UHGV virus genome: UHGV-0210060
Strand: one strand, 5' to 3'
Source of the DNA: a virus
DNA length: 40,776 bases
Below the pieces are notes generated by a model that made no database searches, was not told the DNA's origin, and worked only from the letters and a program-made list of their open reading frames with translations. This document shows, one piece after another, positions 11,086-13,179 of the stretch; the first letter of the stretch is position 1; every line of letters begins with the position of its first letter. The position numbers and the translations under genes were made by a program.

Positions 11086-11793
11086 ATGGATTTGAACAAA
11101 TTCGATGAGCCATTCAGCCCTGAAGATATCGAATGGCGAATACAGCAAAGCGGTAAAACACGCGATGGCAAGGTGTGGGCTATGGTGCTGGCTTATGTCA
11201 CGAACCGGGCAATCATGAAGCGCCTGGACGATGTTTGCGGCAAAGCAGGATGGCGCAATGAATACCGCGATATTCCCAACAACGGCGGAGTTGAATGCGG
11301 CATATCAATCAAGATTGATTCCGAATGGGTAACCAAATGGGATGCTGCTGAAAACACGCAGGTAGAAGCCGTCAAAGGCGGTCGTTCCGGTGCAATGAAG
11401 CGCGCTGCCGTTCAGTGGGGAATCGGTCGGTATCTGTATAACCTTGAGGAAGGTTTTGCACAAACATCTCTCGATAAAAAGCAGGGATGGCACAGGGCAA
11501 AACTCAAGGATGGAACAGGATTTTACTGGCTCCCTCCATCGCTGCCGGGATGGGCAATCCCAGCATCAGATAACAAACCATCACCAGAAAATACCAACCA
11601 GAAATCTCCATCGGTTGACTGCGAACAAATCCTGAAAGACTTCAGCGATTATGCGTCAACAGAAACTGACAAGAAAAAACTCATCGAGCGTTATCAGCGT
11701 GACTGGCAATTAATGGCTGGCAACGAGGAGGCGCAGGCTAAATGCGTTCAGGTAATGAACATCAGAGTTAACGAACTAAAACAGGCGGCATAA
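11086..11793 (+). CDS. Rad52-like single-strand annealing protein (Sak type)
   Basis: Pattern DIEWR...G...GKVWAMVLAYVTNRAIMKRLDDVCGKAGWRNEY ... MKRAAVQWGIGRYLYN fits the Rad52/22 N-terminal fold signature; precedes ssb. Confidence 0.65.
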   Translation: MDLNKFDEPFSPEDIEWRIQQSGKTRDGKVWAMVLAYVTNRAIMKRLDDVCGKAGWRNEYRDIPNNGGVECGISIKIDSEWVTKWDAAENTQVEAVKGGRSGAMKRAAVQWGIGRYLYNLEEGFAQTSLDKKQGWHRAKLKDGTGFYWLPPSLPGWAIPASDNKPSPENTNQKSPSVDCEQILKDFSDYASTETDKKKLIERYQRDWQLMAGNEEAQAKCVQVMNIRVNELKQAA

Positions 11794-12309
11794 ATGGCAA
11801 GCAGAGGCGTAAATAAGGTGATCATTATTGGTCGCCTTGGGCATGATCCAGAAATCAGATATTCACCATCAGGAACGGCATTTGCAAACCTTACCGTTGC
11901 TACGTCAGAACAATGGCGTGATAAGAAAACTGGAGAGCAAAAGGAGCAGACGGAGTGGCACCGCGTGGTAATGAGCGGGAAACTGGCAGAAATTGCCAGC
12001 GAATATCTGCGAAAAGGCTCTGAGGTTTATCTTGAAGGCAAATTGCGGACAAGAAAATGGCAGGATCAAAGCGGACAGGATCGGTTCACTACCGAAGTCA
12101 TCGTGGGCGTTGGTGGAACCATGCAAATGCTTGGTGGCAAGCAAGGAGGCAATGAACAGTCTTCACCTCAGCGAAATAATGGTCAGCAACAAAGACAGCA
12201 ACCTCAGCAGCAGGGAAATCACAGCGAACCACCTATGGATTTTGACGACGATATCCCCTTTGCACCAGTAACTCTCCCCTTCCCTCGTCACGCTATTCAC
12301 GCAATTTAA
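11794..12309 (+). CDS. ssb: single-stranded DNA-binding protein with C-terminal extension
   Basis: OB-fold N-terminus ([41 protein letters not shown]...TEWHRVV), Gln/Gly-rich linker, MDFDDDIPF, then 15 extra residues [15 protein letters not shown]. Confidence 0.9.
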
Positions 12310-12317
12310 GGACTTAC

Positions 12318-12866
12318 ATGAATCACTTGATGGTTGACCTTGAAACAATGGGCAACGGGCCATACGCGCCAGTTATTTCTATTGGGGCGGTATTCTTTGA
12401 CCCGAATACCGGAGAAACAGGAGAAGAGTTCTCGGTAAATATCTCGCTTGAATCATCAATGCGATATCGAGCGCGTCCTGACGCTTCAACGATTTTATGG
12501 TGGCTGGAACAGAGTGAAGAAGCCAGAAAATCGCTAACCAGCAACACTCAGGAGCTTTCAACGGCTCTTTCATGGTTATCTGAATTCATCATAAAGAACG
12601 CTAACCACAAATTCGTTCAGGTTTGGGGGAATGGAGCATCATTTGACTGCGTTATTCTCCGAAACAGTTATTCGCTGACAGGGCAGCCAGTTCCATGGCA
12701 GTGGTGGAATGACCGCGACGTAAGAACAATCGTCGAGCTTGGAAAGGTAATAGGATTCAACCCTAAGCGAGATATGCCATTCAAAGGAACTCGCCACAAC
12801 GCGCTTGATGATGCCATCCACCAAGCCAAATACGTTTCAGCGATCTGGAAAAAGTTAGCTAAATAA
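12318..12866 (+). CDS. DEDDh 3'-5' exonuclease (DnaQ-like)
   Basis: Exo I DLETMG, Exo II NGASFDC, Exo III HNALDDA in canonical order. Confidence 0.75.
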   Translation: MNHLMVDLETMGNGPYAPVISIGAVFFDPNTGETGEEFSVNISLESSMRYRARPDASTILWWLEQSEEARKSLTSNTQELSTALSWLSEFIIKNANHKFVQVWGNGASFDCVILRNSYSLTGQPVPWQWWNDRDVRTIVELGKVIGFNPKRDMPFKGTRHNALDDAIHQAKYVSAIWKKLAK

Positions 12867-12882: not shown

Positions 12883-13179
12883 ATGCCAGCGCCTTTGTAT
12901 GGTGCGGATGACGCGCGCCGCTGTTCCGGCAATTCCGTATCGGAGGTGCTGGATAAATTCAGGAAAAACTACGACCGGATAATGTCGCTACCGCAGGAAA
13001 CGAAAGAGGAAAAGGAGTTTCGCCACTGCATATGGCTTGCAGAGAAAGAAGAACGCGATCGAATTTACCAGACATCAATCCGACCATTCCGCAAAGCCAC
13101 ATATACCCACTTCCCTGAATATATCGACCCGCGCCTGCGTAATTACCGCTCACGCTATGGCGCTATCAGTAATGACTGA
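12883..13179 (+). CDS. hypothetical protein (98 aa)
   Basis: Co-oriented ORF in early-left operon; no motif recognised. Confidence 0.5.

What the first reader, a model, noticed from the sequence alone, without database searches (positions are those of the whole stretch)
12235..12309. SSB carries 15 extra residues beyond the DDDIPF tip
The SSB ORF reads ...MDFDDDIPF and then continues [15 protein letters not shown] before the stop. In E. coli-type SSBs the protein ends at DDDIPF, and the free C-terminal Phe docks partner proteins. An internal DDDIPF would change or block that interface.
Basis: partly seen in the sequence, partly recalled or inferred. Interest (0 to 1): 0.5.

Follow-up and report, generated by a model that had tools for sequence, protein, structure and literature searches.

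The report
Conserved extra tail on phage SSB
The 15 residues after the DDDIPF tip of this prophage's single-strand DNA-binding protein are real: they are a selected peptide shared by many temperate-phage SSBs, their function is untested, and a mobile HNH endonuclease gene sometimes inserts just before them and splits them off.

Summary
The SSB ORF (11794-12309, +) encodes 171 aa ending ...[24 protein letters not shown].

It is not a lost stop codon:
- Phages ECP1, mEp235, epsilon34 and HK75 carry the same tail.
- 116 of the 120 closest SSB clusters carry it or a near variant.
- 410 of 5426 complete E. coli genomes match this ssb 3' region.

A wider family of 14-15-aa post-tip tails exists in prophage SSBs of Enterobacterales, Vibrio and Alteromonadales. 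Its consensus is A-P-[IV]-[TG]-L-[PQM]-[FYH]-P-x-H-x-I-[HY]-[AV]-[IL].

The peptide is under purifying selection: 33 of 37 possible synonymous variants are seen, against 18 of 98 nonsynonymous (p = 3e-8). No RNA or regulatory signal overlaps it.

The F|A junction is where an ssb-specific HNH endonuclease gene inserts in Sf6, CurroJimenez, IME10 and N7. There SSB ends ...DDSDIPF* and the HNH ORF ends in the tail.

The function is not shown. My best inference is a second docking motif that makes the acidic tip internal and changes partner choice. The adjacent 3'-5' exonuclease is a weak candidate partner.

This is a new variant of a known protein kind, of moderate interest.

The parts
11794..12309 (+). 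ssb gene, 171 aa plus stop; the 'SSB-1' type of lambdoid recombination modules
   Evidence: ORF list; Pfam PF00436 E = 3.7e-38; PHROG 44; annotated ssb in matching phages and E. coli genomes
11809..12108 (+). OB-fold ssDNA-binding core (residues 6-105)
   Evidence: Pfam match 6-105; AF2 model shows beta strands and one helix here, pLDDT 53-74
12109..12234 (+). Gln/Gly/Pro-rich disordered linker (residues 106-147)
   Evidence: pLDDT about 30; highly variable among homologs
12235..12261 (+). Acidic tip MDFDDDIPF (residues 148-156), internal in this protein
   Evidence: Sequence. In loci sampled by the tail, not by the tip, its codons vary almost only at third positions. NCBIfam SSB profiles end here.
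12262..12306 (+). 15-residue post-tip tail [15 protein letters not shown] (residues 157-171); the feature in question
   Evidence: Identical in ECP1, mEp235, epsilon34 and HK75. Present in 116 of the 120 closest SSB clusters. Purifying selection, 33/37 synonymous vs 18/98 nonsynonymous variants. 77 distinct tails in the family.
12307..12309 (+). TAA stop of ssb; in HNH-carrying phages the same stop ends the HNH ORF
12259..12267 (+). F156-A157-P158 junction. In related phages the 480-bp HNH gene (with a TAG stop for ssb and a ribosome-binding site) lies between the F codon and the CCA of P158, replacing GCA.
   Evidence: Comparison with Sf6 and CurroJimenez
12238..12261 (+). 24-nt tip-coding patch (DFDDDIPF), the probable recognition region of the HNH endonuclease. 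HNH-carrying alleles differ here by 7 substitutions plus one inserted codon, while the flanks are 98-100% identical.
   Evidence: the same extra-codon or altered tips lie next to HNH homologs
11086..11793 (+). Rad52-like single-strand annealing protein, abutting the ssb start
   Evidence: Pfam PF04098 E = 5e-26; immediately upstream in 38 of 52 unique tail-bearing loci
12318..12866 (+). Rv2179c-like (DEDD, DnaQ-like) 3'-5' exonuclease, 8 nt after the ssb stop; a candidate partner of the tail
   Evidence: Pfam PF16473 E = 2.6e-73; enriched next to tail-bearing SSBs
12883..13179 (+). Abc2-like anti-RecBCD gene; context of the recombination module
   Evidence: ORF; homologous genes annotated abc2 in Sf6, ECP1 and CurroJimenez

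Best explanation
The 15 residues are the genuine, conserved C-terminus of a large lineage of temperate-phage SSBs. They form a short, probably disordered peptide motif. Its consensus is A-P-[IV]-[TG]-L-[PQM]-[FYH]-P-x-H-x-I-[HY]-[AV]-[IL]-COOH, and it always directly abuts the DDDIPF tip.

Shown:
- It is translated and kept by purifying selection at the amino-acid level.
- The tip in front of it is also kept.
- The tail is confined to phage, prophage and plasmid SSBs.
- Phages whose SSB has lost it are viable.

Inferred mechanism:
- Making the tip internal removes the free alpha-carboxylate that canonical SSB partners anchor.
- The tail adds a second hydrophobic docking element.
- Together these shift the phage SSB away from the standard host SSB interactome towards another partner.
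- The adjacent DnaQ/Rv2179c-like 3'-5' exonuclease is the only candidate with statistical support. A host protein is equally possible, because the C-terminal half of the tail varies with host clade.

Second, better-supported part:
- The DNA at the F|A junction is the insertion site of an ssb-tip-specific HNH homing-type endonuclease gene.
- In Sf6-like phages that gene splits the tail from SSB.
- This restores a free ...DIPF end, and the HNH ORF ends in the tail.
For: Conserved normal form:
- The tail is identical in ECP1, mEp235, epsilon34 and HK75, whose SSB bodies are only about 74-77% identical in DNA.
- 116 of the 120 best SSB clusters carry it or a near variant.
- 410 of 5426 complete E. 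coli genomes match this ssb 3' region, 235 of them over at least 80% of it.

Family:
- An IMG/VR scan for DFDDDIPF followed by a sense codon gave many related tails.
- A species-level genome scan found them in Enterobacterales, Vibrio, Alteromonadales and Oceanisphaera, mostly in ORFs with the SSB N-terminal motif.
- 77 distinct tails share the consensus.
- In a database-order sample of 80 viral DFDDDIPF sites, 16 carried the family.

Selection on the peptide, not the DNA:
- 33 of 37 possible synonymous single-nucleotide variants are seen, against 18 of 98 nonsynonymous, mostly conservative (binomial p = 3e-8).
- There is no terminator, no excess of promoter-like sites and no RNA structure (z = +0.88).

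The tail belongs to ssb, not to the HNH:
- HNH homologs elsewhere end a few residues after ...WHKHNKPIY.
- The PHROG endonuclease profile stops at HNH residue 143.

HNH insertion:
- Flanks are 97.7-98.4% identical upstream and 45/45 in the tail. The 24-nt tip patch has 7 substitutions plus a codon insertion.
- HNH homologs sit 8-11 nt after ssb genes of three unrelated body types, whose tips read DD[S/Q]DIPF.
- phiKp_30 keeps a decayed remnant.
- One allele, [14 protein letters not shown]..., looks like a precise loss.

Disorder: tail pLDDT is about 30.

Exonuclease link: it lies next to 23 of 66 tail-bearing and 2 of 107 tail-less unique loci. After collapsing SSBs at 80% identity the counts are 4 of 15 and 1 of 69.

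Carboxyl anchoring by partners: PMC3152348.
Against: - No binding, structural or genetic data exist for the tail. The partner is unknown.
- Many tail-bearing phages (ECP1, HK75) have no adjacent exonuclease.
- The neighbouring annealing proteins belong to several unrelated families, so no phage partner is universal.
- Sf6, IME10, N7 and CurroJimenez propagate with a tail-less SSB, so the tail is dispensable at least in the laboratory.
- The co-occurrence statistics are confounded by shared ancestry of lambdoid modules.
- The selection test treats distinct variants as independent events, which is approximate.
- Endonuclease activity and target specificity of the HNH were not tested.
Confidence: 0.6

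Rival explanations
1. Artefact or recent accident: a sequencing error or a mutated stop codon after DDDIPF in this one genome.
For: Canonical SSBs and all NCBIfam SSB profiles that reach the tip end at the F. Some related Salmonella phages have a stop right after ...DDEIPF.
Against: The same in-frame tail occurs in dozens of phage records, in 116 of the 120 nearest protein clusters, and in prophages of many genera. Variation within it is largely synonymous.
Confidence: 0.01
2. Footprint of a lost homing endonuclease. On this view the tail is the C-terminus of the HNH protein, fused to SSB by deletion, with no role in SSB.
For: In Sf6-type phages the HNH ORF ends with the same 14 residues. One allele, [14 protein letters not shown]..., shows that HNH loss can recreate a fusion.
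Against: - HNH homologs at other ssb genes lack the tail and end soon after ...KPIY.
- The PHROG endonuclease profile excludes it.
- Divergent tails of the same family occur in marine and Morganellaceae prophage SSBs, and no HNH gene stood out among the nearest neighbours listed for the divergent-tail loci.
- The tail is under purifying selection.
Confidence: 0.04
3. A DNA- or RNA-level element (module boundary sequence, regulatory site or endonuclease recognition site) explains the conservation, and translation is incidental.
For: The tail DNA is nearly identical among phages whose ssb bodies differ by about 23-26%. It is followed by different downstream modules (exonuclease or abc2), so it sits at a mosaic junction.
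Against: Almost all synonymous changes are tolerated (33 of 37) while nonsynonymous ones are rare. The broader family keeps the peptide pattern with quite different codons. No terminator, no excess of promoter-like sites and no RNA structure is present.
Confidence: 0.05
4. Removable cap or turnover signal. On this view the tail masks the tip until a protease trims it at F|A (a pro-SSB), or it is a C-terminal degradation tag that limits the amount of SSB, and of the HNH once that protein inherits it.
For: - The tip stays under selection although internal.
- The junction F-A-P is nearly invariant, with no spacer variation.
- The last residues are always small-then-aliphatic ([AV][IL]-COOH), preceded by basic or His residues.
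- From my own knowledge, that resembles C-terminal ClpX recognition motifs such as the one in MuA.
Against: No protease site or degron was tested, and the resemblance is from memory only. A mere cap or degron would not need the conserved N-terminal half AP[IV][TG]L.[FY]P.
Confidence: 0.2

Closest known systems
E. coli chromosomal SSB (PDB 1EQQ, 4MZ9) and its C-terminal tip, SSB-Ct
   Same: Same OB-fold family (PF00436), a disordered Gln/Gly/Pro linker, and an identical [12 protein letters not shown] motif.
   Different: The host protein ends at the Phe, and partners anchor its free carboxyl end (PMC3152348). Here 15 conserved residues follow, so the tip is internal. No solved structure contains the tail.
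Sf6 gp27 (SSB) plus gp26 (HNH endonuclease); likewise IME10, N7 and CurroJimenez
   Same: Same locus and same ssb (97-98% DNA identity). The same 45-nt tail sequence is read in the same frame.
   Different: A 480-bp HNH gene lies between the tip and the tail. SSB there ends NFDDSDIPF*, and the tail is the C-terminus of the HNH protein.
HK620 SSB ('SSB-2', HkaK) with Sak4
   Same: A phage SSB in a lambdoid recombination module whose C-terminal peptide is the docking site for a phage recombination protein (PMC5928155).
   Different: It is an unrelated SSB type whose motif NDYPPF is at the very C-terminus. It has no post-tip extension.
Free-standing homing endonuclease genes that split host genes (for example mobE in the Aeromonas phage Aeh1 nrdA gene; from my own knowledge, not checked here)
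   Same: A mobile endonuclease gene sits inside a conserved coding region. The flanking target sequence is altered in carriers, and the split gene stays functional.
   Different: Only the last 14-15 codons are split off here. They become part of the endonuclease ORF rather than a separate polypeptide.
Lambdoid 'Rec module' SSB-1 with DnaQ-like nuclease (Genome Res 2025, PMC12315714)
   Same: The window has this module: annealing protein, SSB-1, DnaQ-like 3'-5' nuclease and Abc2.
   Different: That paper says SSB-1 has not been studied experimentally, and the passages I read do not mention the tail. It treats the HNH genes as possible Rec-module nucleases. The data here point to site-specific mobility.

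Membership tests
Bacterial-type SSB (Pfam PF00436 / TIGR00621) | OB-fold ssDNA-binding domain matching the family profile | tested here: met
   PF00436 at 130 bits against a cut-off of 26; TIGR00621 at 183 bits against a cut-off of 54
Bacterial-type SSB (Pfam PF00436 / TIGR00621) | Disordered linker followed by the acidic-hydrophobic motif D-F-D-D-D-I-P-F | tested here: met
   Sequence; the motif is identical to E. coli SSB residues 167-178
E. coli-type SSB-Ct interaction module | The IPF motif is the extreme C-terminus, with a free alpha-carboxylate on Phe | tested here: not met
   15 residues follow the Phe. Profiles of E. coli-type SSBs end at residue 155-156.
E. coli-type SSB-Ct interaction module | Binds host partners (ExoI, RecQ, chi, PriA, RecO and others) through the tip | not testable with these tools
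   Needs binding assays.
Bacterial-type SSB | Homotetramer that binds ssDNA | not testable with these tools
   Only a monomer model was possible, and the OB core had moderate confidence
Post-tip tail family (defined here) | 14-15 residues directly after ...DIPF that match A-P-[IV]-[TG]-L-x-[FYH]-P-x-H/L-x-I/L-x-x-[ILVM]-COOH | tested here: met
   The window tail [15 protein letters not shown] is the commonest member, and 77 distinct members were collected
Homing endonuclease target site (for the F|A junction) | Presence/absence polymorphism of the endonuclease gene at one exact position between near-identical flanks | tested here: met
   Window versus Sf6 and CurroJimenez. About 23% of tail-matching viral loci carry the HNH (28 of 127 matches).
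Homing endonuclease target site (for the F|A junction) | The endonuclease cuts the empty allele and its gene is copied in by repair | not testable with these tools
   Requires enzyme assays or co-infection crosses

The most novel reading that the evidence does not exclude
Post-tip tails are a previously undescribed class of SSB interaction motif used by temperate phages and other mobile elements of Gammaproteobacteria. About one in five DFDDDIPF-type SSBs in viral contigs carries one.

On this reading the tail turns the universal SSB-Ct 'hub' peptide into a private docking site. It would either recruit a phage nuclease, such as the adjacent DnaQ/Rv2179c-like exonuclease, or capture or evade a particular host factor. 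The common assumption that the SSB tip must be C-terminal would then not hold for mobile-element SSBs.

An ssb-tip-specific HNH homing endonuclease family toggles the tail on and off.
Probability: 0.4. Interest if true: 0.7.

Novelty: new variant of a known kind. Interest (0 to 1): 0.55.

Why it matters
- **Challenge to the usual view of the tip.** The C-terminal tip of SSB is the hub that recruits more than a dozen genome-maintenance proteins, and it is usually described as needing its free end. A large, selected family of phage SSBs with the tip internal and a second motif behind it suggests an unexplored way for phages to tune, privatise or block that hub.
- **Possible practical relevance.** This bears on phage recombination modules and on recombineering, where SSB-annealase compatibility has been linked to the SSB tail. 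It also bears on anti-phage defence systems reported to sense phage SSBs.
- **Natural controls.** The HNH gene that splits the tail gives isogenic-like pairs, with and without the tail on SSB. It is also an example of a homing-type endonuclease family aimed at the DNA that encodes a short conserved peptide motif.

Tried and rejected
- **Mutated stop or sequencing error:** rejected by conservation.
- **HNH-derived footprint:** rejected because HNH homologs elsewhere lack the tail.
- **DNA or RNA element:** no terminator, promoter excess or structure, and synonymous sites vary freely.
- **Programmed frameshift at CCC-TTT-G:** considered from the sequence only. The 0-frame arrangement is not a canonical slippery heptamer, and nothing else supports it, so I did not pursue it.
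- **Protein search with the C-terminal 52 aa:** returned only 13 short fragments and was uninformative.
- **AF2 monomer model:** the tail had pLDDT about 30 and did not dock on the OB fold, so there is no support for an intramolecular cap. A monomer cannot exclude it.
- **PDB sequence search:** nothing matches the tail.
- **Literature searches for the peptide strings and for phage SSB extensions:** no description found.
- **Resemblance to beta-clamp-binding, SH3-ligand or ClpX motifs:** these are recollections only, and I filed the tail under none of them.
- **Neighbour-gene enrichment:** Abc2 and Ea22-like genes are also enriched, but only within lambdoid lineages, so I treated that as a phylogenetic artefact. 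The exonuclease signal survives lineage collapsing only weakly.

Full report
**1. Observation**

The window has an ORF at 11794-12309 on the + strand. It encodes a 171-aa protein ending ...[30 protein letters not shown], followed by TAA. Residues 6-105 match Pfam SSB (PF00436, E = 3.7e-38).

The gene abuts a Rad52-like annealing protein gene (11086-11793, PF04098). Eight bases after its stop comes an Rv2179c-like DEDD 3'-5' exonuclease gene (12318-12866, PF16473), then an Abc2-like gene. The window as a whole is a mosaic lambdoid/P22-like element of E. coli.

**2. The tail is the normal form of this SSB lineage**

- A megablast search of the phage collection found the ssb in 33 records.
- Translation shows exactly the same 15-residue tail in ECP1, mEp235, epsilon34 and HK75. 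The ssb bodies of mEp235, epsilon34 and HK75 are only about 74-77% identical in DNA to the window.
- Among the 120 best-scoring 90%-identity clusters for this SSB (75-97% identical; Escherichia, Klebsiella, Citrobacter, Salmonella, Enterobacter), 116 end in the tail or a near variant such as [15 protein letters not shown] or [15 protein letters not shown]. Only three end at ...DIPF.
- The 3' part of the gene matches 410 of 5426 complete E. coli genomes, 235 of them over at least 80% of the query. PGAP simply calls it ssb.

A lost stop codon or a sequencing error is excluded.

**3. The tail belongs to a broader family**

Scanning IMG/VR for DFDDDIPF followed by a non-T codon recovered the window's tail and many relatives. 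Examples are [74 protein letters not shown] and AHPFLQYPELIHAI.

A scan of one genome per species for D-I-P-F-A-P-[IVM]-x-L found the family in these groups:
- Enterobacterales: Escherichia, Enterobacter, Kluyvera, Lelliottia, Atlantibacter, Buttiauxella, Trabulsiella, Pantoea, Tatumella, Proteus, Providencia, Moellerella, Symbiopectobacterium.
- Vibrio and Oceanisphaera.
- Alteromonadales: Pseudoalteromonas, Colwellia, Glaciecola, Paraglaciecola, Idiomarina, Rheinheimera.

Most of these ORFs carry the SSB N-terminal motif, and two lie on plasmids.

In all I collected 77 distinct tails, 56 of them 15 residues long and 20 of them 14. The consensus is A-P-[IV]-[TG]-L-[PQM]-[FYH]-P-[R..]-H-[AT]-I-[HY]-[AV]-[IL]. 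The first half is shared by all. The second half tracks the host clade:
- PRHAIHAI in Enterobacteriaceae.
- PRHAIYVI or PRHFINVI in Morganellaceae.
- PALLMCM or PALLNCI in marine genera.

The tail always starts immediately after the Phe.

In a database-order sample of 80 viral DFDDDIPF sites, 19 continued past the Phe and 16 carried this family. Other, shorter post-tip extensions also exist (...YLAGA, MRVMGPW and others).

**4. What is conserved is the peptide**

- In loci sampled by the tail, the upstream tip codons (MDFDDDIPF) vary almost only at third positions. The tip is therefore still under selection although internal.
- In loci anchored only on DDIPF plus a sense codon, and kept if the next 48 nt were at least 70% identical to the commonest tail sequence, the 45 tail nucleotides show 33 of the 37 possible synonymous single-base variants. 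They show only 18 of the 98 possible nonsynonymous ones. Most of those are conservative, such as V/I, T/A/S, F/Y, A/T, H/Y, A/V and I/L/V/M (binomial p = 3e-8).
- The region has no terminator-like site and no excess of promoter-like sites. Its predicted RNA folding energy is ordinary (z = +0.88).
- An AlphaFold2 monomer model built on 64 homologs gives the tail a pLDDT of about 30, with no docking on the OB fold. That fits a disordered linear motif.
- All NCBIfam SSB profiles that reach the tip end at residue 155-156, and no PDB chain contains the tail.

**5. The junction is the insertion site of a mobile HNH gene**

In Sf6, CurroJimenez, IME10 and N7 the match to the window is split by about 450 bp.
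- There ssb ends ...NFDDSDIPF-TAG.
- Nine bases later a 159-aa HNH endonuclease ORF begins (Sf6 gp26, PHROG 2340).
- That ORF ends ...[25 protein letters not shown], so it reads into the same tail, in the same frame, and uses the same stop.
- The Sf6 record itself notes 14 residues shared with an 'E. coli SSB'.

Flank comparison:
- Upstream, the window is 97.7% (Sf6) and 98.4% (CurroJimenez) identical.
- The tail is 45/45 identical.
- The exonuclease is 542/549 identical in CurroJimenez.
- The 24-nt tip-coding patch differs at 7 positions and has an extra TCG codon.

The tail is not an intrinsic part of the HNH family:
- Most of the 77 homologs end within a few residues of ...WHKHNKPIY. Only those at this site carry the tail.
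- The PHROG profile stops at HNH residue 143.

Three more distant homologs (86%, 83% and 49% identity) also lie 8-11 nt after an ssb stop. They sit behind three unrelated SSB body types, and those SSBs end DDQDIPF, DDSDIPF or DDDQDIPF. In the viral loci where the HNH ORF reads into the tail, the upstream SSB ends DDSDIPF (19 loci) or DDEIPF (3 loci).

phiKp_30 keeps only the first roughly 24 nt of the HNH gene. Several database proteins are SSB-HNH or HNH-exonuclease fusions left by deletions. One allele reads [14 protein letters not shown]..., as expected for a precise loss.

About 23% of tail-matching viral loci carry the HNH (28 of 127 matches).

I infer that this is an ssb-tip-specific homing-type endonuclease family. 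The tail-bearing gene would be its empty site, and the recoded tip in carriers would protect them from cutting. Cleavage itself is untested.

**6. How the tail most likely works**

Shown:
- The tail is a selected peptide.
- It is confined to mobile-element SSBs.
- It directly abuts a tip that is still selected.
- It is dispensable in HNH-carrying phages, whose SSB ends in a free DIPF.

Established knowledge: partners of E. coli SSB bind the last residues and anchor the carboxyl end. RecO R132 is an example (PMC3152348). A phage SSB tail can also be the docking site for a phage recombination protein, as with HK620 SSB and Sak4 (PMC5928155).

Inference: the extension removes the free carboxylate and adds a second hydrophobic element. 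The phage SSB should therefore bind canonical host partners less well and bind something else instead.

Candidate partners:
- No phage partner is universal. The upstream annealing proteins include Rad52-like proteins and, judging only from their N-terminal sequences, Sak4-like, RdgC-like and RecT/YqaJ-type proteins.
- The one neighbour that is enriched beyond the lambdoid lineage is the Rv2179c-like exonuclease. It lies next to 23 of 66 tail-bearing and 2 of 107 tail-less unique loci (p = 2e-9). After collapsing SSBs at 80% identity the counts are 4 of 15 and 1 of 69. It also lies next to divergent tails such as AHPFLQYPELIHAI and APIGLQHPALVHCMG.
- This is a lead by analogy with ExoI and SSB. 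It is not a finding, because ECP1 and HK75 have the tail without the exonuclease.
- A host partner is equally possible, given that the tail varies with host clade.

A removable cap or a C-terminal degradation tag remains a live rival.

**7. Comparison with what is known, and novelty**

The protein is a member of the bacterial SSB family: the OB fold, linker and tip were all tested and met. It fails the defining feature of the E. coli-type SSB-Ct module, a C-terminal Phe.

The sequences are in public databases, annotated simply as SSB. A 2025 survey of lambdoid recombination modules states that this 'SSB-1' type has not been studied experimentally, and the passages I read do not mention the tail (PMC12315714).

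Full-text searches for the peptide strings, and for phage SSB extensions, found no description. The library lacks most subscription journals, so prior mention cannot be excluded. The Sf6 genome record shows its authors noticed the shared 14 residues.

I rate it a new variant of a known kind.

**8. Verdict**

- The finding is real and is not an artefact.
- The added value here is threefold: a selected post-tip motif family, its frequency in mobile-element SSBs, and the homing-type HNH gene that splits it.
- Interest 0.55.

Noticed in passing
L001 1984-2463 (Sf6 gp26); L002 1984-2463; L261 2501-2947; L262 2501-2974; L264 and L265 2501-2992: An HNH endonuclease family (PHROG 2340, no Pfam or NCBIfam hit) always lies 8-11 nt after an ssb stop, behind three unrelated SSB body types. 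The adjacent SSB tips carry one extra codon (DDSDIPF, DDQDIPF, DDDQDIPF) or read DDEIPF. This looks like a homing endonuclease aimed at the DNA encoding the SSB tip, with carrier alleles immunised by recoding.
   Followed up: partly
L008 1950-2155 (Klebsiella phage phiKp_30): The ssb ends NFDDSDIPF*, followed by only the first roughly 24 nt of the HNH gene, then about 200 bp of other sequence and a degraded copy of the tail DNA (89% identical). This looks like a decayed endonuclease insertion.
   Followed up: partly
L004 2140-2532 (Salmonella phage 103203_sal5); also ES18: Tail-less ssb alleles ending NFDDEIPF* are followed about 170 bp downstream by an HNH gene that looks unrelated to Sf6 gp26 (not compared directly). 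If so, the ssb 3' end attracts more than one endonuclease lineage.
   Followed up: no
IMG/VR loci L146, L161, L169, L176, L188; L147, L163, L170; L180, L181, L193: Other recurrent post-tip extensions occur on DFDDDIPF SSBs: ...[HW]YLAG[AS] (9 aa), MRVMGPW or DRVRGPY (7 aa), and ...AYVV or ...EYCV. Post-tip extension seems to be a recurrent theme in phage SSBs, not limited to one family.
   Followed up: no
L165 and L178 (IMG/VR contigs of about 77 kb): ORFs of 450-516 aa contain an internal DFDDDIPF followed by a Cys/His-rich C-terminal region of at least 100-240 residues. This may be an SSB fused to a zinc-binding domain.
   Followed up: no
window 12318-12866: The Rv2179c-like 3'-5' exonuclease gene lies next to ssb far more often when the SSB carries the tail: 23 of 66 against 2 of 107 unique viral loci. 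After collapsing SSBs at 80% identity the counts are 4 of 15 against 1 of 69.
   Followed up: partly
window 11086-11793: The annealing protein matches Pfam Rad52_Rad22 (E = 5e-26). RefSeq phage records label its close homologs 'Erf-like ssDNA annealing protein', which is an annotation inconsistency. Other phages in the set (L261, L262, L264) carry a Pfam ERF-family protein at the same position instead.
   Followed up: no
window 12307-12317 versus L003 and L007 after the ssb stop: Directly after the shared tail and TAA, the downstream module switches between phages: exonuclease in the window, mEp235 and epsilon34, and abc2 in ECP1, HK75 and Sf6. The end of the tail is therefore a mosaic recombination junction.
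   Followed up: partly
window 11794-12309: The SSB scores below the curated cut-offs of the specific NCBIfam SSB subfamily models (for example PRK09010, 245 bits against 260). It passes only the general TIGR00621 model. This fits a distinct mobile-element lineage.
   Followed up: no
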